From: Candidatus Uhrbacteria bacterium
GTDB lineage: Bacteria > Patescibacteriota > Patescibacteriia > GWA2-47-26
Assembly (NCBI GenBank): GCA_016187515.1
Contig: JACPJN010000006.1
Coordinates: 257,556-321,555, forward strand
DNA length: 64,000 nt
Reading direction: 5' to 3'
In this document: positions 15,580 to 61,042 of the stretch, piece after piece
How positions within the stretch are numbered: position 1 is the stretch's first letter
How the letters are laid out: each line of letters begins with the position of its first letter
Notes under the pieces: generated by a model
The model's database searches: none
What the model was told of the DNA's origin: nothing
What the model saw: the letters and a program-made list of their open reading frames with translations, nothing else
Program-made: the position numbers and the translations under genes

Positions 15580-16368
15580 TTAAAATTCCTTTGCCTTACC
15601 AAGCTCCATTTTTACAAATTCAATGCCGCTTCCCGCCAGTCCGGTTTCAAAAATTTTGTACCACGGTACTTCCGGCCATTTTACCATAGCGTCGTGAATG
15701 GGGATAGCATATTTAGGTTTGACTTTTTTTACAAATTCCAATCCTTCCCGCACCGCCATCCATGGCGCCACCACTGGTACGGCCAGAATCTCGGCCTGTA
15801 CTTCTTCTGACGGCGTAACACAATCGCCCGGGTGGAATAATTTGCCCGCAATGAGAAAGCCGACATTTTCCACGCGCGGGAAATGATCCGCAATATGGCC
15901 GTGGTCACAGGCAATAGCACGAATAGTTACTCCCTGCACCGTACGAATCTCGCCTGGCTTCAAAATCTCAATCTTAAATTTAATACCATTCTCCGTAAGC
16001 ACCTTTTTTACTCCCTCATTCGTCAGTATCAACCCTGATTCTTGATTCATGATTCCTGATTCATAAATCTGCTTCAGCGCCTCCGGATCCGTATGATCCG
16101 CGTGCTCATGTGTCAAAAGTAAAACATTGCACTGCGGCAAATCCTCCGGCTTCAATAATTTCCGCGTGGTTCCGCGTACGGCCGCATGGTAAGCGCATGA
16201 ATGATCACACCCCATGCCGCGGCCGCCTTCCGCGTGGTTCCGCGAAGCCGTGGAAAAAGAAATTTCTCCATCATTGCCTTTAAACACATAACTGCCCGGG
16301 TCAATCAAAATCCGCGCGGTTCCTTCCTCAATAAACAAACACGAATGTCCGTATTTAGTAACACGCAT
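15580..16368 (-). CDS. MBL-fold metallo-hydrolase
   Basis: VLLLTHEHADHTD (HxHxDH) and a CDHGH motif. Confidence 0.75.
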   Translation of the reverse strand: MRVTKYGHSCLFIEEGTARILIDPGSYVFKGNDGEISFSTASRNHAEGGRGMGCDHSCAYHAAVRGTTRKLLKPEDLPQCNVLLLTHEHADHTDPEALKQIYESGIMNQESGLILTNEGVKKVLTENGIKFKIEILKPGEIRTVQGVTIRAIACDHGHIADHFPRVENVGFLIAGKLFHPGDCVTPSEEVQAEILAVPVVAPWMAVREGLEFVKKVKPKYAIPIHDAMVKWPEVPWYKIFETGLAGSGIEFVKMELGKAKEF

Positions 16369-16488
16369 AGTTTTGTTCTGGTATGGTTATACAACCAAAA
16401 ACCGAACCTATTTTGAACGGAATTGACTAATTGCCGCTGAACGAAGTTCCAACATTCTTTGGACAAAACCAGATAATAAGGAAGTCCG

Positions 16489-18777: not shown

Positions 18778-18782
18778 ATTAT

Positions 18783-18917
18783 TTATCTCAACAATTTCTC
18801 AATAGAAACTTTTAATGCTTTGGCAATTTTTGCCATAGTTTGAACGCTCGGCTTATTAACTGTGCCGCTTTCGACTGCTTTCTTTATATTTTCGCTGATT
18901 ATTCTTTCACTTGTCAT
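18783..18917 (-). CDS. possible truncated XRE-family HTH fragment, 44 aa
   Basis: MTSERIISENIKKAVESGTVNKPSVQTMAKIAKALKVSIEKLLR matches only the C-terminal half of Cro/XRE HTH domains. It abuts the left end of the IS30 element. Confidence 0.25.
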   Translation of the reverse strand: MTSERIISENIKKAVESGTVNKPSVQTMAKIAKALKVSIEKLLR

Positions 18918-18981
18918 ATTAGTAAAGTTTTGGTACTTATTGTAGTAAGTATGATTATTACCTATATTGCTATACTAGGCG

Positions 18982-20049: not shown

Positions 20050-20163
20050 TAACTTACTAAATAAAATGAAAATAATCAAACAAATTTCTTGGCGGCGCAT
20101 TTCGCAAAGCGAAATACAAAATTCGGCGGCGGCAAAAAAGCGAGGGCGGGCCTAGGCCGCACT

Positions 20164-20220
20164 CCGCGCGGTTCCTTCTTCAATAAATAAACACGAATGC
20201 CCGTACTTTGTAATGCGCAT
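20164..20220 (-). pseudogene. diverged duplicate of the 5' end (start codon plus about 19 codons) of the MBL-hydrolase gene
   Basis: 57 bp at about 88% identity to 16312-16368. It encodes MRITKYGHSCLFIEEGTAR, against MRVTKYGHSCLFIEEGTAR in the original. Confidence 0.6.
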
Positions 20221-20221
20221 A

Positions 20222-20905
20222 TTAGCAATTTTCGCAAAGCCCTTCGATATATCCTTTAATCCTATAAAAAAGAACCCGTTTATTAATTCTAATGCTGACC
20301 GTGCCGAATGGAAGTGATCGCTTTGGCCGCTTTAATCTACTTGCACTGCTAAGCTGTTGTGTAATGTAAAATATATCAACCGGCAATTTGGTGACTTTTG
20401 ACCAGAATATCTTTGCTTCTTCAATATCGAGATTGGGATGAACCTGGATTTGTGCGCGTATCAATTCATCAGGAACATTTAGCACCTCCCTTACAAAACG
20501 CATAAATAACGCAATGAGGCGCGGGTCGGAATTTGCAATGGCTACACGAATGTTTTTCCGACTGTGCTCGCTTTTGGTACCCTCTCCCCAGTACAAGGCA
20601 GCTCCAATGAGCAACAATTCTCTTCGTGACAAATCACCAATCTCCTCCATCGCGCGAGTATGAGCAGTTTTATTTTCTTGTAAGATAGCTTCGGTGCGAT
20701 CTTTATTGTATTGCAATAAACCGCGCTCCTGCGCAAGCAATACATTGTGCTCAAGCCGTTTCTTTGCTTCGGTTGGTAGTACAAGATCCCGAAACCAATA
20801 GCTCAATGTACCCTTCGAAGGAATACTGAGTATTTTTCTGATTTCATTATAACTCTTCCCTTGTAATCGGAGGGCTATAGCTTGTTGTTTTTCTAATCGT
20901 CTCAT
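20222..20905 (-). CDS. HTH-domain protein with a LAGLIDADG-like (homing-endonuclease-like) domain
   Basis: The N-terminal HTH reads LRLQGKSYNEIRKILSIPSKGTLSYW. The central segment LLLIGAALYWGEGTK…IRVAIANSDPRLIALFMRFVRE resembles the LAGLIDADG_3 pattern. The assignment is tentative. Confidence 0.4.
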   Translation of the reverse strand: MRRLEKQQAIALRLQGKSYNEIRKILSIPSKGTLSYWFRDLVLPTEAKKRLEHNVLLAQERGLLQYNKDRTEAILQENKTAHTRAMEEIGDLSRRELLLIGAALYWGEGTKSEHSRKNIRVAIANSDPRLIALFMRFVREVLNVPDELIRAQIQVHPNLDIEEAKIFWSKVTKLPVDIFYITQQLSSASRLKRPKRSLPFGTVSIRINKRVLFYRIKGYIEGLCENC

Positions 20906-26628: not shown

Positions 26629-26711
26629 GATAAGAGGGGTAGGGGGAGTTATGAATAGTTCGTAACCCCTCCCAACCTCCCCTTAACCTAAGGGGAGGAG
26701 ATCGGGTTATT

Positions 26712-34542: not shown

Positions 34543-34665
34543 CAATTTCACTAGCTTATTCTACTATTACATCGTACCTCGTCTTCCTACTGGATGACGT
34601 GGGTGAGGAGGACGAGTTTTTCTTGTCCTTTCACAATGTAATGCAACCACAAAGGAGAATACACC

Positions 34666-36930
34666 ATGGGACGCACATGGAATGCGTTGGTATTCTTGGC
34701 AGTAACACTTTTCTCAGCATTCACCTGGGCTCAGCAGGTTCCGCCTTGCGACCCGGTTGTGGTAGATGGGGCGGAAGTATTCGGTGCTGACACCAATCGC
34801 GTGGAAGCCGCAGCCCAACCACTCATCAACCGCGGGGCAACGGTGCGTATCAGAACAGTGCGCACCTATGGCAGCTACGGAAGTTTGGACCATCTTGAGG
34901 ATTCGATAGAGAAGGCGTGTCCTTCTTGGCAAGCGCCTGGAGGCGGTACGCGCAATGGCCTGATCGTGCTCATGATCGCGGTAGATGACCGTAAGGTAGG
35001 CATCTACTCCGGTGATCAATGGAAGCACGTGGTTGCGTCCAACTGGGACAACATCCAAGACCGCTCTATGAAGCCGCGGTTTCGCGATGGCGATTTCGCC
35101 GGTGGATTTATTGCCGGTATGGAAGCACTCCATCGCTTGATCGAGCAGGCAGAGAGCGCACCAGCAGGCGGCGGTGTGACCGTGGTTCAGCAACCGCCGC
35201 TCGATCTGTCTGGATGTGCGAATGTGGGATGGTTTCTTTGCATCCTCGTGTTCATCGGTTTCCTTGCCTGGGCGGGCTATGACATCCATACCAATCGCAA
35301 GCGTCGCCGCGCTGCGCAGGCCGCAGCCCAATCCAAGAAGAAGGCCGCCGCGACTCGGGTAACCGAGCTTGAAGGCGCACGTGAACTGCTCAAAGCCAAG
35401 GTGGAGATCGCCGCGGCACTGACAGCCGAAACAGACGCAGTTGACTTGTGCCGCGACTTTGGCACCTTTGATGAAGTCATTGGACGCGGATCAGCCGCGT
35501 ACACGGATCTCGGCAACAGCGCAAGCGATCCTGATCGCGGCGGCCGAACGCTTGCAGAGTACCAGCGAGCCGAACACGGCTACGATTCGGTGATTGAGAC
35601 ACTGGAGCGCGCACGGAAGATCAAGGACACGCTTGAGCGTATGATTGCCGAGATTCAGAAGGCGGCGGCAGAGGCGCCAGAGATGATCGCAGAGGCAGAA
35701 GACCGCGTAGTAGAAGCAAATAGCGTGATCACTGCCATGAAAGCCGAGGGATGGAAGACCGGGGACGCAGAGACGCAACTTGCCAGCGCAAGCTCAAAGC
35801 TCGGCGAGGCGCGTGCTGCGCTTGCAGGCAAGCAGGCAGCTGCCGCAACAGCATTTGCCAAGCACGTGATTGCCGCAACCGCAAAAGCGAAGGAGGCCGC
35901 TGAAGGCCTGCCCAAGCGCAAGGCGGCCATTGCCGCGGACTGCGGGAAGATATCCTCCCGTCTTCAGACGGTGCGAGCCGCTATTGAGGAAAGCCGGACG
36001 GTGTTTACGCGGTTGACTGAGGTGTATGCAGAATCCTCGTGGGAGGCGATCGTCGGTAACGGCAGCGAGGCGGAGGAACACGTTGAAGTGGCAGTTGCGG
36101 CGCTTGAGGCATCTCGCGCCGCAGCCACGATGGAGGAGCAGCGGTGGGAAGATGCGGAGCGTGCGGCCAAAGAGGGCAACGACGCACTCGGCCATGCCGA
36201 GGCGCTTGCACGAGCTATCGTGGAGCTCGAGGAGCGCATCAAGGTGGCAGAGCGCGAGGCACCTCGGGAGATTGAGGACGCGCAAGCTGATATCAACCGT
36301 GCGAAAGCGTACGAACAAAAGCACGACGCCGACATAGACGACGCGATGAAAGGCGAGATCCGCAAGGCAGAAACCACGCTTGCGCAGGCACGTGATGAAT
36401 TGGCCAAGACCGTGCCGGATTTCCTCCAAGTGGTCAATTTCGCGCAGAAAGCGAATGCGCATGCGGATCGTATCCTTGAAAATTCGCGCAGCCAGTACGA
36501 GGCCGCAGAGCGCCTTCGCAGGCAAGCGGCAAGTGCGCTTCGGGAAGCCGAAACTGCGGTGTCCCGTGCTCGCAACTACATCGCAAGCCACTCCAGCGAT
36601 GTGGAACATTCGGCACGCGGAACGCTCACAAATGCAGAAGCAAACCTCTCGTCAGCTCAGCGTGCGGACGGTCCAAAGGATCGCCTCACCTACGCAGGGC
36701 GTGCAAAAGCAGATGCAGACGGAGCATACCAGCGGGCGAAGTGTGACGTTGAGGAAGCCGAGGAGGAACGGCGTCGTGCACGCCGAGCCCGCGAAGCAGC
36801 TTTGCGGGCATCGTACTCATCGCGCTCGAGCACGAGTATCGGGTTCGGCGGGGGATTTGGCGGCGGGCGCAGTGGCGGCTCATCTGGTTTCGGCTTTGGC
36901 GGGCGAAGCGGCGGCTCGTCAAAGTGGTAG
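34666..36930 (+). CDS. TPM-domain (YgcG-like) membrane protein with a roughly 470-aa coiled-coil insert and a Gly-rich C-terminus
   Basis: Signal peptide, then a TPM domain (GLIVLMIAVDDRKVGIYSGDQW…MKPRFRDGDFAGGFIAGMEAL), a TM segment (VGWFLCILVFIGFLAWAG), a long A/E/K/R-rich helical region, and a GFGGGFGGGRSGGSSGFGFGG tail as in E. coli YgcG. Confidence 0.7.
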   Translation: MGRTWNALVFLAVTLFSAFTWAQQVPPCDPVVVDGAEVFGADTNRVEAAAQPLINRGATVRIRTVRTYGSYGSLDHLEDSIEKACPSWQAPGGGTRNGLIVLMIAVDDRKVGIYSGDQWKHVVASNWDNIQDRSMKPRFRDGDFAGGFIAGMEALHRLIEQAESAPAGGGVTVVQQPPLDLSGCANVGWFLCILVFIGFLAWAGYDIHTNRKRRRAAQAAAQSKKKAAATRVTELEGARELLKAKVEIAAALTAETDAVDLCRDFGTFDEVIGRGSAAYTDLGNSASDPDRGGRTLAEYQRAEHGYDSVIETLERARKIKDTLERMIAEIQKAAAEAPEMIAEAEDRVVEANSVITAMKAEGWKTGDAETQLASASSKLGEARAALAGKQAAAATAFAKHVIAATAKAKEAAEGLPKRKAAIAADCGKISSRLQTVRAAIEESRTVFTRLTEVYAESSWEAIVGNGSEAEEHVEVAVAALEASRAAATMEEQRWEDAERAAKEGNDALGHAEALARAIVELEERIKVAEREAPREIEDAQADINRAKAYEQKHDADIDDAMKGEIRKAETTLAQARDELAKTVPDFLQVVNFAQKANAHADRILENSRSQYEAAERLRRQAASALREAETAVSRARNYIASHSSDVEHSARGTLTNAEANLSSAQRADGPKDRLTYAGRAKADADGAYQRAKCDVEEAEEERRRARRAREAALRASYSSRSSTSIGFGGGFGGGRSGGSSGFGFGGRSGGSSKW

Positions 36931-36995
36931 TAGTTATGCCGCAGGAAACGCACAGCGAAACAAAAACGGCCAACAACCAACCCAGGAGGTGACCA

Positions 36996-37754
36996 ATGGC
37001 CAGTTTGTTCAAGAAGATCAGGACCGGAGTGCTCGCGCAGGCGCACAAGCTTGCCGACGCCTTGATTGACCTCGACTCGGTCGCGGCACTCAAGGTCCAC
37101 ATCCGAGACCTGGAGGAAGCACTCGAAGAACTCCAGGATGCGGCTGCGGCCGAGGTCGGCAACGTCCGTACTCTCGAGCAGGCGATCGTCGCGCTTGATG
37201 CGCGCGTGAAGGAGCTCAACTCGAATATCGAGTTCCTGCTTTCGGATGAGGACGAATCCAACGACCACCTGGCCACGCCGCTTCAGGCCAAGCTCGACAT
37301 GCTCAGCCGCGAACTCGCAGCCAAGCGCGAAGAGCTTACGGTGGCACGGCAGACCGCCTCCCAGCTCAGCGAGGCCGCGTCCAACCTCAAGGCCAAGCAC
37401 GCCTCTATGGTGGAGCGGGTGCGCTCGCTCGAGTCCCTCGAGCGGGTCGCAGAGGCCAAGGATCGCGCGGCCGAGGCGATCCGCAGCGCAGGTGCGGCGG
37501 TTGCCGGCAGCGACGGGCCGTCGGTGGACGACGTGGAAGCGCGACTGCGCCGCAAGGCGAACGTGGCCGACGCGCGGTTTACGCGCGCAATGGGCGAGTT
37601 TGCCGGAGGAGTGGAGCAGGACGTGGCGCTGGCCCAGGCCAAGGCCGCAATCGAGAGGCGCAAGGCCGAGATCGCGGCGCGCAAGGCCGCGGCGGACCAG
37701 CCCCAGCCCGTGCCGGCCGCCCCTGGCGAGCCCGCGGCGCCCGCGGCCGGCTAA
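36996..37754 (+). CDS. PspA/IM30 (phage-shock protein A / Vipp1) family protein
   Basis: The N-terminal region MASLFKKIRTGVLAQAHKLADALID…IRDLEEALEELQ aligns with E. coli PspA [25 protein letters not shown]…IQEMEDTLVEV. It is coiled-coil throughout. A strong AGGAGGTG RBS is present. Confidence 0.65.
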   Translation: MASLFKKIRTGVLAQAHKLADALIDLDSVAALKVHIRDLEEALEELQDAAAAEVGNVRTLEQAIVALDARVKELNSNIEFLLSDEDESNDHLATPLQAKLDMLSRELAAKREELTVARQTASQLSEAASNLKAKHASMVERVRSLESLERVAEAKDRAAEAIRSAGAAVAGSDGPSVDDVEARLRRKANVADARFTRAMGEFAGGVEQDVALAQAKAAIERRKAEIAARKAAADQPQPVPAAPGEPAAPAAG

Positions 37755-37784
37755 CCGGAGGAGAGGAAGGGAAAATACATCAAG

Positions 37785-37818
37785 CCCCGCGACGGGAAAC
37801 CATCGCGGGGCGTTTTCA
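37785..37818 (+). terminator. rho-independent terminator after the PspA-family gene
   Basis: ccccgcgacgggaaaccatcgcggggcgttttc. Confidence 0.6.
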
Positions 37819-37902
37819 ATTTGCCTGTGGATAAGGAGTTGTGATAAACTACCGTTTGGTATGTGGACAAATCCGCCACAACTAAACCCGAATGCATAAG
37901 GC

Positions 37903-37931
37903 GTCCCGCCCAAAAGGCGGGCGTTTTTTTG
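37903..37931 (+). terminator. second rho-independent terminator about 85 nt downstream (possible small RNA 3' end)
   Basis: cgtcccgcccaaaaggcgggcgttttttt. Confidence 0.5.
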
Positions 37932-38156
37932 TAAGTGCTTGAAATTTATGAGCGCAAGCGAAATAATTTCCCAGCACTTACAACCCGCCAGCTTGTGGGT
38001 GCCACTGAACCGGAGTCCCGACCGCGGTCGGGACGGAGGCATGCGCGGCGCTGCAAAAGGCGGGTTTGTAGCCCATTCTAAGTCCTCAAAGACATTGATG
38101 GCTTACGCCGGGCCATAAAAGTCCCCAAACCTTATCCGCTCTTTGAGAGGTGGATC

Positions 38157-38798
38157 ATGACACCTGCTGCTGCCCAAGCTGTACGCGCTGTACCCAAGCT
38201 TCCCCGTGATCTTCAGTCCGAAGATCTGCCGACCATCAAACCGCCACCGGTGCCCTCCGCGCTGGAGATCATCACACGCGCCTACGACGGAAACCACACT
38301 CTGGAGTGGTTTATCGTCGAGACGATCTTGCGCACGGTTGCCCAGGCCTTTCCGTACTTTTCCGAGGCCAAGCGCTTGCGGCAGTGGGCACAAGCGCGCG
38401 TCAATCTCAATCTGCTACGCGATCCGCCGCCTGAAGGATGTGTACTGCTCAATACTCCGGCTCTTGAACTCAAACACCCGGAGCTTCCCAAAGGCCGCAC
38501 CTACTTGCTGGTTCCGGGCGGCGCAGGTCGCGAAACGTACTGCGTGGTAGTCCTGGACCATGCCCATCTGGCACAAGCAAATCAAGAAAGCCGCCCGGTC
38601 GCGTTCAACTCCTTCCACATCGCCGCGCTGGGAATCGGCACGATATTTGCGCCCGCGATCTGCCGGCTCGTCTTTGAAACAGTCGGCAAGGCCGCGATAT
38701 TCACGGAAGCCCACATTACCTACCGGGTCTCCGCGGCGCTGCGCGTCCTGGAAGAAGAGCTCAAGCAGTTGTGGACCCTGCGCGGCCTAACTTGGTAG
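38157..38798 (+). CDS. hypothetical protein, 213 aa
   Basis: Intact GC-rich ORF with a GAGAGGTGG RBS. No family recognised. Confidence 0.45.
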   Translation: MTPAAAQAVRAVPKLPRDLQSEDLPTIKPPPVPSALEIITRAYDGNHTLEWFIVETILRTVAQAFPYFSEAKRLRQWAQARVNLNLLRDPPPEGCVLLNTPALELKHPELPKGRTYLLVPGGAGRETYCVVVLDHAHLAQANQESRPVAFNSFHIAALGIGTIFAPAICRLVFETVGKAAIFTEAHITYRVSAALRVLEEELKQLWTLRGLTW

Positions 38799-38895
38799 CC
38801 CGCCCTTTTCCCCTGCCGCCCACCGGCCCCAAAGTCGGTGGTTTTTTATTTTTGGGTATTTTTTAGCCAATTGTTTCGCAAGAGGTCTATACCCA

Positions 38896-38924
38896 TTGAC
38901 AAGCTCTCCTTTTTGTGATATAGT
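38896..38924 (+). promoter_or_regulatory. sigma70-type promoter
   Basis: TTGACA – 17 bp – TATAGT, located about 100 bp upstream of the 39028 ORF. Confidence 0.55.
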
Positions 38925-39027
38925 GTGCTGTGGCGCTGAAATAACGCAGGTTAAACTCCTGCCCTTGCCGCCCAACTACAACCTTCCCGACCGCAATCGG
39001 GGAACTACCTGAAAAGGAGAAAAGATC

Positions 39028-39414
39028 ATGGAAGGCATGCCAATGCCGGAAGTAAGAAGGGAAACGAAGCATTTCCAGGTGCTCGCCCGCCACCCGGTCC
39101 CGGGCACGAGCGAAGTGATCGCCATCGAAATCCGAGAATTCCTCGACCGCGCCGGTCGTCTGATCCGCGGGGCCGCGATCACGATCAGGTCCGGAGGGTG
39201 GTTCACGGTGGGACTGTTCGATCGCGCCTGCGGAAGCGGCGATGCGTCCAACCGCGCGGTGTACCTCTATTCCGCGCCGGACGGGGGAATGTGGGTGCTG
39301 TTCAAGCGGCCCACCGTGCCCGCGCTCCTGTCGCTTTCGGCCGCGCAGGTGGAGGCCATCGCGGACACCCTCGACAATCTGGAGCAGCGCGGCGCGATCG
39401 GACGCGCCGCGTAG
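39028..39414 (+). CDS. hypothetical protein, 128 aa
   Basis: A GAAAAGGAGAAAAG RBS is present, and a consensus promoter lies upstream. Confidence 0.45.
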   Translation: MEGMPMPEVRRETKHFQVLARHPVPGTSEVIAIEIREFLDRAGRLIRGAAITIRSGGWFTVGLFDRACGSGDASNRAVYLYSAPDGGMWVLFKRPTVPALLSLSAAQVEAIADTLDNLEQRGAIGRAA

Positions 39415-39488
39415 ATAAGGGGCAAAGTTCTTCAACCCGTGTTGCTCGCGCCCCATTTGCGAGTACACATTACACAGGAGCTCTCACC

Positions 39489-40373
39489 ATGACGACCCGT
39501 CTGGTCACGCTGTCTCTCGTCCTCGCCGCGTGCGCGATCGGGCCTGACCCGAAGGTGGAGTTCAGGACGATCGGTGCTCCCGAGCCGGCTGCCCCCGCGG
39601 TCGCGCCGGTCCGCGACGACTGTCCCAACGGCACGGCGCCGCTTTCCAACGTGCATGGCACGGCCTGCTGGCCGCGCAGTGAGCAAAACCCGCCCGCGGA
39701 GCACTGCCGTCCGGAGCGCTGTCCGGCAACCGGCTACATGCTCTGGGACTGTCCAGTGCCAACTCCGGCCCGCGACGCGCAGGGCAAGCTGATCCTCGAG
39801 GAAGCAGTCGAGCCCGAGCCCATGGTCGTGCGGCGGGAAAACCCGGACAAGATCCATGTCCAACAGCCGCGGGAAGACGAAGGGCCGTGGCTCACGTCGC
39901 GTGTCGTTGGCCCGCCGCTGGATTACAAGCCCGCGTATCTCGTGAATGCTGAAGGATCGTTCAAGTGCGAGTGTGCCACGACCCAGAGCGGCAAGACCCT
40001 GTGCCAGAACTGCAGGCTAGAGTCTGCGCAGGCGGCGGTGGATCCGAAACCGCAGGCCAAGCTCGCCGCGGAGATGCGGACATATCAGTGCCTCCTGCGC
40101 ATGGGACCGCAGCTAGTGCGCAAGGTCGCGTTCAAGGGCGCGCCTGGCAAGTTCCGGGCTCACCACGGTACCCCCAGGCGAGGTTCGGACGGTCGTCCAA
40201 GATTCACGGACGACGGCGGACACTCGTACACAGGGGCTGCGGGCGAGATCTACTTCTGCCCGTTCCGGCCGGACTGCGACGTCAGCGCCGGTCCCAACCA
40301 TTACGAGGACTGTCTGGACTTCGCCAGCTGTGAGGAGATGTGTATGGATCCGCAAGGAAAGCCCATCCGGTGA
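39489..40373 (+). CDS. Cys-rich lipoprotein (16 Cys)
   Basis: The start was chosen at MTTRLVTLSLVLAACAIG, which has a lipobox LAAC and an AGGAG RBS. The longer ORF 39198-40373 was rejected. Confidence 0.5.
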   Translation: MTTRLVTLSLVLAACAIGPDPKVEFRTIGAPEPAAPAVAPVRDDCPNGTAPLSNVHGTACWPRSEQNPPAEHCRPERCPATGYMLWDCPVPTPARDAQGKLILEEAVEPEPMVVRRENPDKIHVQQPREDEGPWLTSRVVGPPLDYKPAYLVNAEGSFKCECATTQSGKTLCQNCRLESAQAAVDPKPQAKLAAEMRTYQCLLRMGPQLVRKVAFKGAPGKFRAHHGTPRRGSDGRPRFTDDGGHSYTGAAGEIYFCPFRPDCDVSAGPNHYEDCLDFASCEEMCMDPQGKPIR

Positions 40374-40529
40374 ACTGTTCCATGGCCGTGGGGTTTGTGT
40401 GTGTTTGCGCCTCAAGCGCGACGCACGACCCCCGGCTATTTTTTATTTCCCCCGGTTTTCCAAGCGCGTACCGCTCTGGTAAGTATTCCTTGACAGGAGC
40501 GTCTATCTTGATAGGGTAGAAGTGATCCT

Positions 40530-47623: not shown

Positions 47624-47729
47624 AGGGTGGTGTAGGATTATAAAATATGTTCACACATTCAGCGCAGATCATCATTATCGGAAAAGGCGCGGGGCAATGA
47701 ATCCCGGATTTTCATTGTTCCACGCCTGG

Positions 47730-47758
47730 CTCCGACTGCAAGGTCGGAGTTTTGGTTT
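47730..47758 (+). terminator. hairpin plus U-tract (terminator or leader attenuator)
   Basis: ctccgactgcaaggtcggagttttggtttt, about 100 nt after mgtC and about 50 nt before the next start. Confidence 0.35.
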
Positions 47759-47806
47759 TAAGTGAGGACTGCTCTTTCAACCCTAATCCAGAAAAGGAAA
47801 AGCGCG

Positions 47807-48820
47807 ATGCCGGAAAAAGTATACATGCTGAATGGGCAGATCGTTCCGGAAGCCGAGGCGCGAATCAGTCCGCTTGGGTCAGACCCGATGTTTGCCTATG
47901 GCATGATTGATCGTCTGCGAACGTTTCGGGGAACAGACGGGCGGATGCGCATGGTGGGATTGGCACAGCACCTGTCCCGCTGTCAGGCAACCGCAGCAGC
48001 GCTCTTTGGAGCGGATATTGGCGATCTGCGCCGCAGCTGGGCTGATCAGCTTGCAAGGGCGGCGCTGGCTACCGAACTTGGGGAGGTCTATCTTCATCTT
48101 GGCTATGGCCAGATGTCCAGCCCGGGGACCATGCTGCAGGGCGCGAGCGCGGGACTCACCACCTTTGTGTTTGCCAAACACGAAGGCCCGCTCTACCAAG
48201 GCCGCGACGGTAACGCGGTTTACGTATCGACTGAGCCGCAGTGGCCGCGGCCGGACGGGCCTTTGACCGCGCATAAGACCCACGGCTATCAAGAATTGCT
48301 TTGGCTCAAGAATAGAGCCCGTGCGCGCAGGCCGGACAAAGACGCGCGCAGTGTGGAAGCGCTGCTGCTGGCGCGGGACTCGTTCAGGTTTGACCGCGAC
48401 AGCAGAAACTGGGTGGTTGCCGAAGACGATCCGCTCACGGCCGAGTGCGGATGCACTTGCGCATTCGCGCTTGACCGGCAGGGCAATCTGCACTTGCCCG
48501 CGCGCGCGGTTCGTTATTTCCGCGGCGTTACGGTGCAGATTGTGGAGGCGCTGTTTCGCGCGTACTTTCCGGACAAACAGGTATTGCATGATTTGCGGCG
48601 CAGTCATCTGCTGCACAATGGCGGCACGGCTGGCACTGCCGGAGGAGTAGTGCCGATTGTGGAAGTAGATAAAAAAACCTGTGAACGCACCGAGCAGTTT
48701 GACGCGCTGGCCGCGCTTTACTGTAAGCTGTGCTGGGGCGAACTCAATCGCCGCGATCTGCAGGAGCAGTGGGCGCCGGTAATCGCAACCGGCATGAGCC
48801 AGCAGGTGGCCGTCGGCTGA
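47807..48820 (+). CDS. aminotransferase class IV-like protein (BCAT / D-Ala AT / ADC-lyase fold)
   Basis: The start was set at MPEKVYMLNGQIVPEAEARISPLG…YG…HLSR. This follows the class IV N-terminal pattern but is divergent. The gene is very GC-rich. Confidence 0.45.
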   Translation: MPEKVYMLNGQIVPEAEARISPLGSDPMFAYGMIDRLRTFRGTDGRMRMVGLAQHLSRCQATAAALFGADIGDLRRSWADQLARAALATELGEVYLHLGYGQMSSPGTMLQGASAGLTTFVFAKHEGPLYQGRDGNAVYVSTEPQWPRPDGPLTAHKTHGYQELLWLKNRARARRPDKDARSVEALLLARDSFRFDRDSRNWVVAEDDPLTAECGCTCAFALDRQGNLHLPARAVRYFRGVTVQIVEALFRAYFPDKQVLHDLRRSHLLHNGGTAGTAGGVVPIVEVDKKTCERTEQFDALAALYCKLCWGELNRRDLQEQWAPVIATGMSQQVAVG

Positions 48821-48840
48821 ACAAAATCATCGGCTCTCAG

Positions 48841-48880
48841 CCGGCAGACCAGGGACAAAACTTCCCGTCTGCCGGTTTTT
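48841..48880 (+). terminator. rho-independent terminator
   Basis: ccggcagaccagggacaaaacttcccgtctgccggtttttt. Confidence 0.6.
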
Positions 48881-48960
48881 TAATTTCGATAATATTTCGC
48901 CGCGTCTTCAGGAGAGATGGGGTTGATGATCAGTCCCGAGCCGATCTCCACCCAGCCCAG
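48880..48960 (-). pseudogene. diverged duplicate of the 3' end (about 23 codons plus stop) of the GalT-like gene
   Basis: Encodes …VEIGSGLIINPISPEDAAKYYRN*. It is about 85% identical to 50373-50454, the true C-terminus …VEIGSGLIINPVSPEDAAKYYRS*. Confidence 0.6.
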
Positions 48961-48978
48961 AGAGGATCGCCGAGTATA

Positions 48979-49692
48979 TTATTTTAGGGCCGCTAGATAA
49001 TTTTTGAGCAGGAAAATCGTTTCTTTTTTTAGATTTTTTTTCACCCACATCTTTTCTTTTTCCTCCAATTGCTCGCCTATTCCTTGTAACAATTGATTAT
49101 CTTTTATTTCTTGAATAAAAGATATGCAGTCCGGTAAATATTCTTTAACCAGCTTACCTGTGCGCGCTTTGACTATTTCCTCGCTGATATCCCAGTTATG
49201 TTTGGCAAAAAAATAGATATCGTAGATATCGCGCATGGCCATTTTTTTGCGTGCTTTCAAGGCGACCAACTTATTGGCAAAGAGGGAGTGCTGTTTTGCC
49301 GCCAGCATAGAAATACCCAAATATTCTTTTAGCTCATAGTATTGTTTGATTGCAAACGGAAACTCTCTTCTGGAGATTTCAATTTTAATATTGTGGTCTT
49401 TATCCCCATAGGAAAGTAGTGCAAAGATAGTATATTTTTTTACATAACTTTCTTTGATATCTCCATAATTTTGGATAATATTCAGAATCTTTTTCAAGAT
49501 ATTTTCCAGACCTTCTTTATCAAGATTAGCAAGCAAATCAAAATCAAGATCTACCGAGAACCGCGTCAATCCATAAAAAAAGTACGCGCAAGTTCCGCCC
49601 TTAAAGCCGAGAAACGGCGCCAGGGAAATGTCCGTATAGATATCCTTGAGAATCTGGCCCATGATGCGCTGATGCCTTGCTTTATCAAGCAT
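48979..49692 (-). CDS. abiEii: AbiEii/AbiGii-family nucleotidyltransferase toxin (type IV TA, DUF1814)
   Basis: GFKGGTCAYFFYGLTRFSVDLDFD is the NTase motif. The length matches the family. The region is AT-rich. Confidence 0.75.
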   Translation of the reverse strand: MLDKARHQRIMGQILKDIYTDISLAPFLGFKGGTCAYFFYGLTRFSVDLDFDLLANLDKEGLENILKKILNIIQNYGDIKESYVKKYTIFALLSYGDKDHNIKIEISRREFPFAIKQYYELKEYLGISMLAAKQHSLFANKLVALKARKKMAMRDIYDIYFFAKHNWDISEEIVKARTGKLVKEYLPDCISFIQEIKDNQLLQGIGEQLEEKEKMWVKKNLKKETIFLLKNYLAALK

Positions 49693-50269
49693 AGAGCTTG
49701 TGATAGGAATTAAGACGATTGATCAATTGTTTACTTTGATAAAGTGTTACTAACTGAAAGCATTTCTCCCATTGTAAACTTTTGAGATTATCAAAGTAGT
49801 ACTCCGGGAAAAGATATATCATATCCAAAAATGCGCGCTCTGGGCTGGCAATACTATAGGCGCCCCGATGAACTATACCATTAGGATTGTAGAGTATCTC
49901 ATCTTTGAGTTTTCTGAAGACAAAGCGGGAATGATCACAAATGACCTTTCGCGAAAACCGGCTTGCGAAAAAAATGGCCTGATAATATTGAAAAATTATA
50001 CCCGCTTCCCGCAATACGGTTTCAAAACTCATATAAGACGGCGTATAAATTTTGCTCCCGAGCTCCAACACGTCATAATTGTCTTGGTCCTTTACGTATA
50101 TGCCGCGGCGCAACTGATGAAGTTTGCCCTGTTTCACGTAATAATGAATGCGGGCTTTCAGTGTTGACAAATGCTTTTCTCCCCACAAAATGGCGATCTC
50201 TTTTGTGGTTAGTACGGTATTTTTAGCTCGATATAGCTCCAAAATATCAAACTTTTTCAATTTTTTCAT
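49685..50269 (-). CDS. abiEi: AbiEi-family antitoxin / transcriptional regulator
   Basis: The N-terminal winged HTH reads VLTTKEIAILWGEKHLSTLKARIHYYVKQGKLHQLRRGIYV. It overlaps the toxin gene by 8 nt. The size and arrangement are typical of AbiEi. Confidence 0.65.
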   Translation of the reverse strand: MKKLKKFDILELYRAKNTVLTTKEIAILWGEKHLSTLKARIHYYVKQGKLHQLRRGIYVKDQDNYDVLELGSKIYTPSYMSFETVLREAGIIFQYYQAIFFASRFSRKVICDHSRFVFRKLKDEILYNPNGIVHRGAYSIASPERAFLDMIYLFPEYYFDNLKSLQWEKCFQLVTLYQSKQLINRLNSYHKLYA

Positions 50270-50372
50270 AAGATGTGCACTAAAGGTAATAGAAAGTGTT
50301 ACCTTTATTGTACAATATTGCTTAAAACCGTCAATGGAAGCATCCTGTGGATAACCGCAAAAACACGCTGAC

Positions 50373-51293
50373 TCAACTCCGATAATACTTTGCCGCGTCT
50401 TCGGGGGAAACCGGATTGATGATAAGTCCCGAGCCGATCTCCACCCCAGCCCAAATTGAGCCGCGGGGGGTGATTTTCATGTAAAGATGCTGATCTTCGT
50501 CATGGATAACTTGGTGGAAGTAGAAATTGTAAGGAAGGTTAAGCGCGGCGATTTTTTTCAAAATGCGCTTTAGGATTTTTGCCCAAGAGAGCCGTTCGGC
50601 GTCATTTAAGAGCGTCACATTATCCAGGTGCCGGCGCGGCAGAATCCATACTTCGTAATTGTGCATAGAGGCGTAGGGAGTAAAGGCAATCACTTGCGCA
50701 TCCTCAAACACCAGCCGCGGCCCCGTGCGTTCGCGCGCGATCACATCGCAATACACACAACGGCCGGTACGCAGTTTATACGCTTGCACCTTCTGCGACT
50801 TATCAAAGAGGTGCGGAGGCAAGAAATGGGTGGCAAAAATCTGCGAATGCGCATGTTGGATTGAGGCGCCGGCCGGTCCGCCCGCGTTTTTAAAAATGAG
50901 AATGTATTCGATTTTTTTGTCTTTGGCGATAGCGTCCGTGCGCGCCGCATAGGTGGAGAGTAACTTCGCCACGTGTGGATCAGACAACTCTTCGAGATGG
51001 GTGCCATGTTTAGGGGTTTCCACCACGACTTCCTGCACGCCGTAGGCCTTGGGATTTTCCAAAGAGACGGCGGGGAATTTATTAGGGACGACTTTTATTT
51101 GCCACACTTTATTTCCTCCAACTTCCAGGACATATCCCTCCTGATCCAATTTTTCCGGGCAAAATCGGCAAGGAGGCGGCACCACTTTTTGCGGCGCAGT
51201 TGGCGCAACCTCATGCGGCCGCACCCCCCGCCTAGGCGCAATGATCACGTACTTGTCTTGAATATAATCTTTGCGGATCTCGGATCCCAGCAT
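50373..51293 (-). CDS. galactose-1-phosphate uridylyltransferase-like (GalT / HIT superfamily) protein
   Basis: CRFCPE zinc motif near the N-terminus. The HxHxQ active site reads SIQHAHSQ. Confidence 0.7.
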   Translation of the reverse strand: MLGSEIRKDYIQDKYVIIAPRRGVRPHEVAPTAPQKVVPPPCRFCPEKLDQEGYVLEVGGNKVWQIKVVPNKFPAVSLENPKAYGVQEVVVETPKHGTHLEELSDPHVAKLLSTYAARTDAIAKDKKIEYILIFKNAGGPAGASIQHAHSQIFATHFLPPHLFDKSQKVQAYKLRTGRCVYCDVIARERTGPRLVFEDAQVIAFTPYASMHNYEVWILPRRHLDNVTLLNDAERLSWAKILKRILKKIAALNLPYNFYFHQVIHDEDQHLYMKITPRGSIWAGVEIGSGLIINPVSPEDAAKYYRS

Positions 51294-51528
51294 AGGGCGT
51301 AGAGCATAGAGCTAAGAGTTAAGAATTGAGGGTGCTCCGAAAAGTTCTGATTCGCTTAGCTAATATTTCTCCCTCATTATACAGTTCTCGATATAACGGT
51401 TCTTTGATTAACCCTTTCTTGTAAGCAACGGTAAGTCCGTAAATGGTTTCGAAGATTGACCGTATCGCTATATCTAAAGTCTCGAATCTGAACATATTAC
51501 TCTATGCTCTTAGCTCTAAGCTCTATGC
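51291..51528. repeat. about 240-bp intergenic element bounded by inverted heptamer-repeat arms
   Basis: The left arm is gcatagggcgtagagcatagagctaagagttaag. The right arm is ctctatgctcttagctctaagctctatgc. It lies between the galT start and the ruvC stop. Confidence 0.5.
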
Positions 51529-51993
51529 CGGCAGCCGTGCTCCTGCCAGCGCGATTGCCAGTGCGTCAGCCGCGTCGTCGGGCTTGGGGATTTCTTTTAG
51601 TTTCAACAGTAATTGTACCATGCGCTGTATCTGCTGTTTATCGGCGCCTCCGTAGCCGGTCAGCGCTTGCTTTACTTCTTTGGGAGAGATTTCCACGCAA
51701 GGCACCTGAAGTTTCGCGCAAGTCATGAGTATCACTCCGCGCGCCTCGCCAACTTGTAGCGCCGTCTTTACGTTTTTCGAAAAAAATAATTTTTCTACTG
51801 CAATTTTAACCGGTCGGTATTTTTTAATAAGTTGCGTGAGCTCTTTATGGATTGTGGCAAGCCGGTTAGCGTGGCTCATGGTGGATGGTGTCTCAAAGCA
51901 TCCGTAGGTCACCGCACGCGGGACATTCTTTATTTCTTCCACTATTCCATAACCCAGCCGTGCCACACCCGGATCAATGCCAAGGATAATCAT
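51523..51993 (-). CDS. ruvC: crossover junction endodeoxyribonuclease RuvC
   Basis: MIILGIDPGVARLGYGIVEE…, with D/E catalytic residues conserved. Confidence 0.9.
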   Translation of the reverse strand: MIILGIDPGVARLGYGIVEEIKNVPRAVTYGCFETPSTMSHANRLATIHKELTQLIKKYRPVKIAVEKLFFSKNVKTALQVGEARGVILMTCAKLQVPCVEISPKEVKQALTGYGGADKQQIQRMVQLLLKLKEIPKPDDAADALAIALAGARLPA

Positions 51994-60826: not shown

Positions 60827-61042
60827 GATTTAGGCTGGGGTATGAAGGTAAAAAATACGCTTCACGGCAAGGATTTATATCGCGTAATCCTTTTGGTATG
60901 GAAGACCGGCGGAATTTTCGCTAATTTCAGCCCAAATTCAGGTGAGGCGTGCCACTAAACAGCAAAGTATCCCTACTCTACCAGATTGGGTTGTTCTTGT
61001 CAAGTTTAGGAAACCGTGATAAGTTATCCACAGGAGGAATTC

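What the first reader, a model, noticed from the sequence alone, without database searches (positions are those of the whole stretch)
48880..50454. The AbiEi/AbiEii toxin-antitoxin cassette was inserted with a roughly 80-bp direct duplication of the 3' end of the neighbouring galT-like gene
A 1.4-kb AT-rich block holds an AbiEii nucleotidyltransferase toxin and an AbiEi antitoxin. The block is flanked by two about 85%-identical copies of the last about 25 codons plus stop of the GalT-like gene (48880-48960 and 50373-50454). The intact gene end borders the cassette on one side, and a decaying pseudo-copy borders it on the other. The block lies between a GC-rich aminotransferase gene, which has its own terminator at 48841-48880, and galT. 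The duplication marks the insertion boundaries and implies a recombination mechanism that copies the target gene end, such as site-specific integration into the gene's 3' end or a homology-assisted gene-cassette insertion.
Basis: seen in the sequence. Interest (0 to 1): 0.6.

Follow-up and report, generated by a model that had tools for sequence, protein, structure and literature searches.

The report
Toxin cassette beside displaced gene end
A 1.4-kb AbiE toxin-antitoxin cassette in a Candidatus Uhrbacteria genome sits between two versions of the last ~26 codons of a galT-like gene; the two versions are different alleles, not a fresh copy and its decaying twin, and this matches a known but mechanistically unexplained way ('insertion with long target duplication') in which addiction gene pairs enter genomes without carrying a recombinase.

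Summary
The repeat is real. Positions 48880-48960 and 50373-50454 align at 85-86% (blastn E=8e-20) and bracket an intact AbiEi/AbiEii operon of 38-40% GC.

The downstream copy is not decaying. Ten of 13 differences are at third codon positions (pN/pS 0.11). It keeps its stop codon and is joined to a native-type terminator. It is therefore an allelic galT end that was functional until recently.

Related genomes show:
- an empty site (L089);
- the same galT-end+AbiE unit in another lineage (L086, 78% nt identity, synonymous sites saturated);
- a different PIN toxin cassette in the same site with the same duplication (L087);
- a 50-nt mini-insert (L090).

Related AbiE cassettes in other CPR genomes are flanked by 61-270-nt imperfect repeats of other targets (ndk end, glycosyltransferase end, an intergenic region). 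One locus (L010) holds a two-cassette array with three copies of a gene end. Pooled pN/pS across six repeat pairs is 0.12.

No integrase was found in the cassette or in the window.

Best reading: homology-anchored recombination between cassette-bearing and cassette-free lineages. This is a TA/CPR instance of the 'insertion with long target duplication' described for restriction-modification systems. The enzymology and the direction of transfer remain unresolved.

The parts
50373..51293 (-). GalT-like HIT-family nucleotidyltransferase gene (DUF4931), intact, 306 aa, TGA stop
   Evidence: Listed as an ORF. Pfam hits GalP_UDP_transf 9e-12 and DUF4931_N 5e-9. 100% identical to NCBI MBI2552171.1, Candidatus Uhrbacteria.
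50373..50454 (-). Upper repeat copy: the functional last ~26 codons plus TGA of galT ('cassette-linked' end, ...YYRS*)
   Evidence: Lineage L086 shares the same ...CGG AGT TGA ending followed by a homologous leader. It is closest to the L086 end, with 7/51 differences.
50270..50372 (-). Leader between the galT stop and AbiEi. It holds TTATCCACAGG (50344-50354), promoter-like TTGACG-16-TACAAT (50334-50307) and a 16-nt inverted repeat at 50274-50289/50299-50314 (candidate AbiEi operator).
   Evidence: (I12). The leader is 80% identical to the L086 leader.
49685..50269 (-). AbiEi antitoxin/regulator, 194 aa
   Evidence: PADLOC AbiEi 1.4e-58. Pfam AbiEi_4 scores 0.0022, below the curated cut-off.
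48979..49692 (-). AbiEii nucleotidyltransferase toxin, 237 aa; overlaps AbiEi by 8 nt
   Evidence: Pfam PF08843 1.3e-19. PADLOC 5.9e-66. Full length, with all family-invariant residues present.
48961..48978 (-). 18-nt junction spacer between the AbiEii TAA stop and the displaced galT end; no detectable homology to galT
48880..48960 (-). Lower repeat copy: displaced, allelic galT 3' end (VEIGSGLIINPISPEDAAKYYRN*, TAA). It has a 1-nt deletion at its 5' edge. Its 5' 30 nt are nearly identical to the upper copy; its 3' 48 nt carry 12 of the 13 substitutions.
   Evidence: The uneven distribution of differences gives Fisher p=0.013. It is closest to the displaced end of L087, 8/51 differences. Alignments to L089 and L087 run past its stop codon into the terminator.
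48839..48881 (+). Hairpin plus U6 terminator of the convergent AT4-like gene. The U-tract overlaps the displaced stop codon. This TAA + A-run + hairpin context is of the native type also seen at the empty site.
   Evidence: -25.9 kcal/mol, z -4.7. Comparison with L089, L087 and L090.
47762..48820 (+). Class-IV-aminotransferase-like gene (AT4), GC 56-64%. It is ancestral neighbour of galT in this clade and is not part of the insertion.
   Evidence: Pfam 1.1e-5, below cut-off. Only 3 homologues were found, all next to MgtC and, where the contig reaches that far, galT. A remnant is present in L006. Synonymous divergence to L087 is half that of the flanking genes.
16311..16369 (-). Second case in the window: functional 5' end (first 19 codons) of an MBL-fold gene (15580-16368)
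20163..20221 (-). Displaced allelic copy of that 5' end (88% identical; 7 differences, 6 synonymous). It sits directly after the stop of the upstream ORF (20222-20905). The two copies bracket a 3.85-kb block: IS30, a small HTH ORF and a 762-aa BNR protein.

Best explanation
The repeat is the joint left by homology-anchored recombination between two related Uhrbacteria lineages. One lineage carried the unit [galT terminus (...AGT TGA) - leader/promoter - AbiEi - AbiEii]. The other carried the plain locus [galT terminus (TAA) - terminator - AT4].

Recombination within or next to the conserved last ~80 nt of galT left the gene with the cassette-linked terminus. The other lineage's terminus, still attached to its own terminator, ended up downstream of the toxin gene. 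No copying of the target at insertion is needed: the two repeat copies are donor and recipient alleles.

The same outcome recurs in CPR genomes, with different cargo at galT, different target termini for related AbiE cassettes, and serial arrays. It corresponds to the 'insertion with long target duplication' described for restriction-modification gene complexes.

Shown here: the architecture, the allelic nature of the copies, an empty site, recurrence, and the absence of a recombinase gene.

Inferred: host homologous recombination does the work, either as one-sided homology plus an illegitimate joint (HFIR), or as Campbell-type integration of a circle excised through the direct repeats, after DNA uptake. 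Also inferred: the addictive TA pair helps the insertion persist.

Unresolved: which side was the recipient.
For: (1) The repeat pair is allelic. Ten of 13 differences are at third codon positions (p=0.0016). pS is 0.51 and pN is 0.055. A stop codon is retained at the homologous position in both copies, TGA in the gene and TAA in the displaced copy.

(2) The pooled estimate agrees. Across six independent repeat pairs (W galT, W MBL 5' end, L172 ndk, L181 GT2, L010 DUF155, L087 galT; 181 codons) pN/pS is 0.12, 95% CI 0.07-0.20. About 0.5 or more is expected if one copy had been neutral since a duplication.

(3) The displaced copy carries the native-type context, TAA + A-run + hairpin, as in empty site L089 and in the displaced copies of L087 and L090. 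Alignments to those loci run past its stop codon. The functional end plus leader is shared with L086.

(4) The W-L086 unit is as diverged as the galT body: pS is 0.59-0.67 in AbiEi/AbiEii and 0.70 in galT. The cassette-galT linkage is therefore old. If the displaced copy dated from that time it should carry at least ~11 nonsynonymous changes; 3 are seen.

(5) The displaced copy looks chimeric: 1 difference in its 5' 30 nt against 12 in its 3' 48 nt (p=0.013). This is what a crossover inside the repeat would give.

(6) The architecture recurs:
- L087: a PIN-toxin cassette between two galT ends.
- L090: a 50-nt insert plus a 33-nt second end.
- L172-174: ndk end, 132-142 nt, 92-94% identical.
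- L181: GT2 end, 61 nt.
- L177-180: ~200-270 nt of intergenic sequence.
- L010/L099: an array DUF155-end / NYN gene / end / AbiEi-AbiEii / end.

(7) No integrase or resolvase was found in any cassette or among 43 window ORFs. RuvB and RuvC are present. No relatives of this AbiEii family were found in IMG/VR viral contigs.

(8) Literature. Furuta et al. 2010 (PMC2853133) define the class: an addiction gene pair, an insert under 20 kb, repeats over 30 bp (46-423 bp, imperfect), no mobility genes, an empty site in a relative, and occurrence mostly in competent species.
Against: - The direction of transfer is not resolved. The AT4 tract is unusually close to L087 (pS 0.33, against 0.68-0.72 for MgtC and galT). 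The displaced end and its flank could therefore be the incoming piece, with the cassette resident.
- Three different cargos or junctions (at -33, -80 and at least -95 nt) all lie within the last ~100 nt of one gene in one clade. That could also mean a site-specific enzyme acting in trans.
- No excised circle, empty-site allele or hybrid GalT of this strain was found.
- Competence and RecA were not examined.
- One other case (L035) has 108 identical nt, which fits a copy-at-insertion mechanism equally well.
- Four AbiE loci show no flanking repeat (L171, L175, L182/183).
- All statistics rest on short segments of 15-56 codons each.
Confidence: 0.55

Rival explanations
1. The cassette is a degraded or non-autonomous site-specific integrative element, comparable to e14/phage 21 in icd or to CIME/IME elements. 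Its attP would carry a replacement galT 3' end. An integrase encoded elsewhere (in trans, or since lost) would recombine a short core inside galT, producing attL (gene plus element-borne end) and attR (displaced native end).
For: - The architecture matches icd/e14/icdC: an element-borne terminus with synonymous differences and a displaced C-terminal pseudogene (PMC13626634).
- The galT terminus is used repeatedly, by AbiE, by a PIN cassette and by a mini-insert.
- The repeat pairs contain identical stretches: 22 nt in the window and 16-23 nt shared by all three L010 copies.
- The L010 array resembles tandem accretion.
- The functional ends of the window, L086 and L087 all end in (A/G)GT TGA.
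Against: - No integrase or resolvase was found in the cassettes, in the flanks examined, or among the 43 window ORFs.
- Related AbiE cassettes (60-66% aa identity) sit at unrelated targets, which a site-specific enzyme would not allow: ndk, GT2, DUF155 and an intergenic region.
- Junction positions at galT differ: -33, -80 and at least -95 nt.
- Leader similarity between the AbiE and PIN cassettes is weak (shuffle p~0.03).
- No viral-contig relatives were found.
Confidence: 0.2
2. One reading: the insertion mechanism itself copied about 80 bp of the target (staggered cuts plus fill-in, or replication slippage). The two copies started out identical, and the non-functional one has since been decaying.
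For: - The repeat brackets the cassette exactly.
- The displaced copy has a 1-nt frameshift at its 5' edge.
- One other CPR case (L035) has 108 identical nt.
- Older copies in the L010 array show higher pN/pS, 0.30-0.49.
Against: - pN/pS between the copies is 0.11 in the window and 0.12 pooled (CI 0.07-0.20), against an expectation of 0.5 or more.
- The stop codon is retained.
- The displaced copies of the window and of L087 also differ from each other almost only synonymously.
- The cassette-galT unit predates the window-L086 split, which has saturated synonymous sites. A copy made at that time would be unrecognisable now.
- The two copies have different stop codons and different downstream contexts, matching different lineages.
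Confidence: 0.1
3. The cassette and an old displaced end were inherited vertically from the window-L086 ancestor. The displaced end was later 'refreshed' by ordinary homologous recombination with DNA from a cassette-free relative. That imported tract would run from inside the galT end through the terminator. On this view the repeat marks an old insertion plus a recent allelic replacement.
For: - The displaced copy is chimeric: its 5' 30 nt match the functional copy and carry the only indel, while its 3' 48 nt are allelic.
- The adjacent AT4 tract has half the synonymous divergence to L087 of its flanks, so recombination tracts do end in this region.
- Cassette and galT have co-diverged between the window and L086.
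Against: - The 5' 30 nt of an old neutral copy should also have decayed, yet it shows 1 substitution and 1 indel against 7 or more expected.
- Homology to L087 stops at the AT4 stop codon and does not run continuously into the displaced end.
- This rival differs from the best explanation only in timing and direction, not in mechanism.
Confidence: 0.15
4. Metagenome assembly chimera: two strain variants of the locus were joined at a shared k-mer.
For: - The window comes from a MAG.
- Several short contigs break at or near the repeat: L004, L086, and the N-gap in L087.
Against: - Contigs from two other samples, assembled independently, span galT, the cassette, the displaced end, AT4 and MgtC identically (L001, L002).
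- Analogous structures were assembled by different pipelines for L172-174, L177-180 and L010/L099.
- The 18-nt spacer and the cassette end share no k-mer with galT that could cause a false join.
Confidence: 0.03

Closest known systems
'Insertion with long target duplication' of restriction-modification gene complexes (Nobusato et al. 2000, cited from my own knowledge; Furuta, Abe & Kobayashi 2010, PMC2853133)
   Same: In both, a small addictive gene pair with no mobility gene is bracketed by long, imperfect direct repeats of the target (46-423 bp there; 33-270 nt here). A related genome holds a single-copy empty site. The repeats often overlap the 3' end of a neighbouring gene. The insert differs in GC from the genome. 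The mechanism is unresolved.
   Different: The cargo here is a type IV TA pair (AbiE), and in neighbours a PIN toxin or an NYN gene, not R-M. The hosts are CPR/Patescibacteria. Serial arrays occur (L010). The synonymous-only divergence of the repeat copies, indicating donor and recipient alleles, was shown here; the passages of that paper I read do not mention it.
e14 / phage 21 integration into icd of E. coli (icd + icdC)
   Same: The gene's functional 3' end lies inside the inserted DNA. A displaced C-terminal pseudogene lies at the far end. The two ends differ mainly by synonymous and conservative changes (PMC13626634).
   Different: e14 is a 15-kb prophage with its own integrase and SOS-induced excision. 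Here the insert is 1.4 kb, has no recombinase, and related cassettes use other targets.
Homology-facilitated illegitimate recombination and 'C-terminal/sequential displacement' arrays (Rhs, CDI and T6SS effector-immunity loci; PMC5361080)
   Same: An incoming module is anchored by the conserved upstream gene sequence. The old 3' parts are pushed downstream and retained as orphans. Successive events build arrays. The alleles within one array come from different strains, not from duplication.
   Different: In those systems the displaced parts are variable toxin tips and immunity genes that stay useful. Here the displaced part is a conserved housekeeping terminus with no evident function, and the cargo is a self-contained TA operon.
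CIME/IME tandem accretion at the 3' ends of genes (streptococcal ICESt-type elements; PMC5704250 appeared only as a search hit, I did not read it, and the description here is from my own knowledge)
   Same: Integrase-less cassettes are flanked by att-like direct repeats at the end of a housekeeping gene, and arrays form.
   Different: Those repeats are short identical cores recognised by a known tyrosine integrase. No such enzyme or fixed core was found here.

Membership tests
AbiE type IV toxin-antitoxin / abortive-infection system | Toxin of the AbiEii (DUF1814) nucleotidyltransferase family | tested here: met
   Pfam PF08843 scores 1.3e-19, 71.5 bits against a 22.5 cut-off. PADLOC AbiEii scores 5.9e-66. 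The protein is full length and has all columns that are invariant in 22 homologues.
AbiE type IV toxin-antitoxin / abortive-infection system | AbiEi antitoxin with an N-terminal winged-helix regulator domain | tested here: met
   PADLOC AbiEi scores 1.4e-58 over residues 9-187. Pfam AbiEi_4 scores only 18.5 bits, below the 25-bit cut-off.
AbiE type IV toxin-antitoxin / abortive-infection system | Bicistronic operon with the antitoxin first, and a promoter with inverted-repeat operator for autoregulation | tested here: inconclusive
   Gene order and an 8-nt overlap are seen. A promoter-like site lies at 50334-50307, and a 16-nt inverted repeat at 50274-50289/50299-50314 overlaps it. Binding was not testable.
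AbiE type IV toxin-antitoxin / abortive-infection system | Toxicity of AbiEii and its neutralisation by AbiEi; phage defence | not testable with these tools
   This requires expression experiments.
Insertion with long target duplication (criteria of Furuta et al. 2010) | Insert under 20 kb containing the complete addiction pair and no mobility gene | tested here: met
   The unique insert between the two repeat copies (48961-50372) is 1,412 nt; the start-to-start spacing of the copies is 1,493 nt. It holds only AbiEi and AbiEii.
Insertion with long target duplication (criteria of Furuta et al. 2010) | Direct repeat longer than 30 bp flanking the insert | tested here: met
   The repeat is about 81 nt at 85-86% identity, E=8e-20.
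Insertion with long target duplication (criteria of Furuta et al. 2010) | A related genome holds a single copy of the repeat at an empty site with matching flanks | tested here: met
   L089 has MgtC>AT4><GalT with one galT end and a terminator. L006, L007 and L008 also lack the cassette.
Integrase-mediated integrative element (prophage/ICE/IME) | Tyrosine or serine recombinase gene inside or adjacent to the element | tested here: not met
   No such Pfam domain was found in the cassette or in 43 window ORFs of 120 aa or more. The only DDE enzyme is an IS30 transposase 29 kb away.
Integrase-mediated integrative element (prophage/ICE/IME) | One conserved target/core site for related elements | tested here: not met
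   Related AbiE cassettes are flanked by repeats of ndk, GT2, DUF155 and an intergenic region. Junctions at galT vary in position.
Integrase-mediated integrative element (prophage/ICE/IME) | Element supplies a replacement gene terminus and the native terminus is displaced | tested here: met
Integron gene cassette | attC recombination site 3' of the ORF and an intI/attI platform | tested here: not met
   Only 18 nt separate the AbiEii stop from the displaced end, which is too short for an attC as I know it (own knowledge). No integrase was found.
Homology-facilitated illegitimate recombination | Homologous anchor on one side and an illegitimate (microhomology) joint on the other | tested here: inconclusive
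   An anchor (galT) is present. The right joint at 48961-48978 shows no homology. However, the chimeric pattern of the displaced copy suggests a crossover inside the repeat instead.
Homology-facilitated illegitimate recombination | Natural competence / DNA uptake in the host | not tested
   Competence genes were not searched for. Only RuvB and RuvC were seen in the window.

The most novel reading that the evidence does not exclude
TA and other small accessory cassettes in CPR bacteria may move by a recombinase-free, self-perpetuating cycle. The cassette would carry a portable copy of a conserved housekeeping-gene terminus as its homology arm. It would loop out as a circle by recombination between the flanking repeats, be taken up by a relative, and re-enter by RecA-dependent Campbell integration into that gene's terminus. 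Each re-entry would recreate the repeat and hand the gene a foreign but functional end. Serial events would build arrays such as the one in L010. If so, this would be a main route of accessory-gene flux in genomes that carry few classical mobile elements, and it would also explain the unexplained 'long target duplication' of R-M systems.
Probability: 0.3. Interest if true: 0.75.

Novelty: new member of a known kind. Interest (0 to 1): 0.55.

Why it matters
How toxin-antitoxin and defence cassettes spread without their own recombinase is poorly understood. The 'insertion with long target duplication' seen for restriction-modification systems has had no established mechanism since 2000.

This locus and its relatives extend that phenomenon to AbiE and PIN cassettes in Candidate Phyla Radiation bacteria. 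They also add a diagnostic signature: the two repeat copies differ like alleles, with pN/pS around 0.1. That points to homology-anchored recombination between lineages and away from target copying.

The signature gives a simple genomic test that can be run at scale. It also warns annotators that short 'pseudogene' fragments of housekeeping-gene ends next to TA pairs are junction markers.

Tried and rejected
- Scanned 80 species-representative genomes and 80 JGI metagenome loci with GalT homologues for a second galT end. None was found outside the AT4-bearing clade.
- Searched IMG/VR viral contigs with an AbiEii alignment. No relatives were found.
- Looked up predicted excision products (hybrid GalT C-termini) by exact sequence. 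They are not in the collection.
- All contigs carrying the identical GalT also carry the cassette.
- Tested for a phylogenetic incongruence of GalT between the window and L087. It disappeared with proper local alignment: 85% identity, the same as to L089 and L006. I dropped that argument.
- Tested leader homology between the AbiE and PIN cassettes. It is only weak (p~0.03) and was not used as evidence.
- Considered TTATCCACAGG as a recombination core. It is absent from the right junction in the window, so I rejected it as a core and left it unexplained.
- Considered tRNA targets for the intergenic repeat of L177. There is no tRNA.
- Considered readthrough fusion of the toxin to the displaced peptide. 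The two are in frame in the window and in L087 but not in L172, so I treat this as coincidence.
- The direct repeat in L016 is a tandem paralogue pair, and the one in L013 is a simple-repeat-containing intergenic element. Neither was counted.


Full report
OBSERVATION

On the minus strand the locus reads as follows:
- RuvC (51993-51523)
- a small 23S-IVP-like ORF
- the GalT-like DUF4931/HIT gene (51293-50373, TGA stop)
- a 103-nt leader
- AbiEi (50269-49685)
- AbiEii (49692-48979)
- an 18-nt spacer
- a second copy of the last ~26 codons plus stop of galT (48960-48880, TAA)
- a hairpin+U6 terminator
- the convergent class-IV-aminotransferase-like gene AT4 (47762-48820, + strand) and then MgtC.

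The repeat is 72 nt at 85% identity without gaps. With one 1-nt gap it is ~81 nt. blastn against the whole window gives E=8e-20.

AbiEi and AbiEii are confirmed by PADLOC models (1.4e-58 and 5.9e-66) and by Pfam PF08843. The block has 33-42% GC, against 50-63% in the flanks. The terminator hairpin folds at -25.9 kcal/mol with z=-4.7.

The organism is a Candidatus Uhrbacteria (CPR) MAG. Two independently assembled Logan contigs from other samples span the whole structure identically. This rules out an assembly chimera.

THE LOWER COPY IS AN ALLELE, NOT A DECAYING COPY

The lower copy translates to VEIGSGLIINPISPEDAAKYYRN*. The gene's own end is GVEIGSGLIINPVSPEDAAKYYRS*.

- Of 13 substitutions, 10 are at third codon positions (binomial p=0.0016).
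- pS is 0.51 and pN is 0.055.
- Even the stop codon changed stop-to-stop.
- The GalT C-terminus is nearly invariant across homologues, so this is the pattern expected of two functional alleles.

Three further observations agree with this.

First, the lower copy is followed by TAA + A-run + hairpin, like the cassette-free site in L089 and like the displaced copies in L087 and L090. Alignments to those loci run past its stop codon. The gene's present end is followed instead by a leader.

Second, over the last 51 nt the functional end is closest to that of L086 (7 differences). The displaced end is closest to the displaced end of L087 (8 differences).

Third, the differences are unevenly spread: 1 in the 5' 30 nt against 12 in the 3' 48 nt (Fisher p=0.013). 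The only indel lies in the 5' part. This suggests a crossover inside the repeat.

RELATIVES

None of 80 species-representative genomes or 80 JGI loci with GalT homologues has a second galT end.

The ancestral synteny is YebC-RuvC-GalT> <MgtC (L007, L008). An AT4 gene lies between GalT and MgtC in the clade nearest the window; it is present as a remnant in L006.

AT4 has only three homologues, and they identify the informative loci:
- L089 is an empty site: MgtC>AT4><GalT, with GalT 86% identical.
- L087 (AT4 84% identical) carries a different cargo at the same place. A small antitoxin-like ORF and a PIN_3 toxin are followed, 3 nt after the toxin stop, by a second galT end, RGSIWAGVEIGSGLIINPISPEDAAKYYRE*.
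- L090 has only ~50 nt between the gene end and a 33-nt second end, PEDAARYYRK*.

The closest AbiEii homologue (80% aa identity) lies on L086. Its 1,777-nt contig aligns colinearly with window 50762-48977 at 78% nt identity: galT 3' part (92% aa), the same ...AGT TGA end, a homologous leader, AbiEi and AbiEii. The contig stops 3 nt after the toxin stop.

Synonymous divergence between the window and L086 is saturated and similar in all three genes: galT body 0.70, AbiEi 0.59, AbiEii 0.67. The cassette-galT linkage is therefore old.

A neutral copy made at that time should carry at least ~11 nonsynonymous changes, even using the lowest local rate. Three are seen. The displaced copies of the window and L087 also differ from each other almost only synonymously. 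Each displacement is therefore recent relative to the divergence of these lineages.

GENERALITY

I examined eight further distinct AbiE loci: seven reached through AbiEii homologues of 60-66% identity, and L010, which came from the GalT scan. Four of the eight show the same architecture:
- L172-174: the last 132-142 nt of ndk, 92-94% identical, 11 synonymous differences against 1 nonsynonymous, TGA versus TAG stops.
- L181: 61 nt of a glycosyltransferase end.
- L177-180: ~200-270 nt of intergenic sequence.
- L010/L099: an array, DUF155 gene end / NYN gene / second end / AbiEi-AbiEii / third end, with all three copies in frame and carrying stops.

The other four loci (L171, L175, L182, L183) show no flanking repeat.

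Pooled over six independent repeat pairs (181 codons), pN/pS is 0.12, with a bootstrap 95% CI of 0.07-0.20.

The window holds a second case with unrelated cargo. The first 19 codons of an MBL-fold gene are duplicated (16311-16369 and 20163-20221; 88% identical; 6 of 7 differences synonymous). The two copies bracket a 3.85-kb block holding IS30, a small HTH ORF and a BNR protein.

MECHANISM

No integrase or resolvase is encoded in any of these cassettes or among 43 ORFs of the window. RuvB and RuvC are present. No relatives of this AbiEii family occur in IMG/VR viral contigs.

Four features argue against a dedicated site-specific recombinase and for host homologous recombination anchored in a conserved gene terminus:
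- different targets for related cassettes;
- variable repeat lengths (33-270 nt);
- variable junction positions at galT;
- the allelic nature of the copies.

Two routes are possible. One is one-sided homology plus an illegitimate joint (HFIR). The other is Campbell-type integration of a circle formed by recombination between the repeats.

The recurrent use of the galT terminus by three different inserts in one clade keeps a trans-acting site-specific enzyme (a CIME-like element) alive as a rival.

The direction of the event is unresolved. The AT4 tract is unusually close to L087 (pS 0.33, against 0.68-0.72 in MgtC and galT). The locus is therefore a mosaic, and the displaced end with its flank could be the incoming piece.

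COMPARISON WITH KNOWN SYSTEMS

The architecture meets every criterion of 'insertion with long target duplication' as defined for restriction-modification complexes (Furuta et al. 2010, PMC2853133):
- a complete addiction pair;
- an insert under 20 kb;
- a repeat over 30 bp;
- no mobility gene;
- an empty site in a relative.

It works like e14 in icd, where the element supplies a terminus and icdC is displaced (PMC13626634), but without an integrase. It also resembles the HFIR-based sequential displacement proposed for T6SS and Rhs arrays (PMC5361080).

The AbiE pair itself is an ordinary member of a very large family, with more than 4,700 homologues. AbiE is among the commonest defence families in groundwater bacterial MAGs, present in more than 10% of them (PMC12259885).

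VERDICT

Three points need correcting:
- the copies are donor and recipient alleles, not a copy and its decay product;
- the cassette-galT unit is old, while the displacement is recent;
- site-specific integration is not supported.

This is a new (TA, CPR) member of a known but mechanistically open class. The useful new handle is the allele-like divergence of the repeats. Interest is moderate.

Noticed in passing
window 16311-16369 and 20163-20221 (block 16370-20162): The first 19 codons of an MBL-fold gene are duplicated (59 nt, 88% identical, 6 of 7 differences synonymous). The two copies bracket a 3.85-kb block holding an IS30 element (perfect 18-nt inverted repeats at 18984-19001/20030-20047), a small HTH ORF and a 762-aa BNR/Sortilin-like protein. 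This is the 5'-end mirror image of the galT case.
   Followed up: partly
L010 8396-11625 (= L099), Uhrbacteria RIFCSPHIGHO2_02_FULL_57_19: A two-cassette array: DUF155 gene end, NYN-domain gene, second copy of the end, AbiEi-AbiEii, third copy of the end. The copies are 141-172 nt and 82-89% identical, and all are in frame with stop codons. The older copies show higher pN/pS (0.3-0.5).
   Followed up: partly
L087 4977-5802: A PIN_3 toxin with a 67-aa upstream ORF occupies the same galT-terminus site, with its own duplication. The scaffold has an N-gap inside the functional galT end, probably caused by the repeat.
   Followed up: partly
window 51296-51529: A 58-aa 23S-rRNA-IVP-like (four-helix-bundle) ORF (51319-51495) is flanked by 23-nt inverted repeats (GGCGTAGAGCATAGAGCTAAGAG / CTCTTAGCTCTAAGCTCTATGCC). 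It lies between RuvC and galT. It is present in L007 (88% identical) but absent from L006 and L008, so it looks like a small mobile insert.
   Followed up: no
window 12575-12633 and 12981-13039, inside the TsaD ORF 12189-13520: Two copies of a GCTCTATGC-type repeat, the same motif family as the IVP flanks, lie in frame inside an over-long TsaD gene (443 aa). They are translated as ...SIEHRA..YALSP... segments, so repeat elements appear to be tolerated within a coding sequence.
   Followed up: partly
window 50344-50354, 37824-37834, 61024-61034; L086 408-418; L177 2846-2856 and 4496-4506: The DnaA-box-like 11-mer TTATCCACAGG occurs exactly 3 times in the window. The tool's shuffle expectation is 0.64 for up to one mismatch; for exact matches I estimate ~0.03 from sequence length. 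It sits 8-12 nt upstream of the -35 of the AbiE promoter in the window, L086 and L177. In L177 it lies at the very edge of the flanking repeat. Its function is unknown.
   Followed up: partly
window 47668-48816 vs L087 2279-3426: The AT4 tract is 86% identical to L087 (pS 0.33), while the flanking MgtC and galT are 76-77% identical (pS 0.68-0.72). This indicates a separate, more recent recombination tract. AT4 itself has only 3 homologues among 5.8 billion clusters and is otherwise fast-evolving (52-56% aa identity).
   Followed up: partly
window 48979-48880 and L087 5525-4977: In both genomes the toxin ORF is in the same reading frame as the displaced galT end, separated by one stop codon (plus 6 codons in the window). 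This is not so in L172, so it is probably coincidence.
   Followed up: partly
window 34600-40400: A GC-rich island: 61% GC against 51-52% elsewhere. It encodes a TPM-domain protein, a PspA/IM30-like protein and several ORFs without Pfam hits. It may be foreign DNA.
   Followed up: no
window 26660-26701 and 27857-27898: A 42-nt repeat (98% identical) containing a palindrome (CCTCCCCTTAACCTAAGGGGAGG in the first copy; the second has one substitution). One copy lies upstream of, and the other inside, the O-antigen-ligase-like ORF 26712-28121. It looks like a REP/MITE-like element.
   Followed up: no
L035 7513-7624 and 8171-8282: The last 27 codons plus stop and spacer of the conserved 402-aa ORF 8194-9402 are duplicated over 112 nt, of which the first ~104 nt are identical. 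The copies flank a 187-aa membrane-protein ORF. This is a case in which the two copies are not allelic.
   Followed up: partly
window 235-320 and 1817-1908: Two ~90-nt direct repeats (79-82% identical) rich in CGAAT/TTCGTA motifs lie 1.58 kb apart in a region without convincing ORFs.
   Followed up: no
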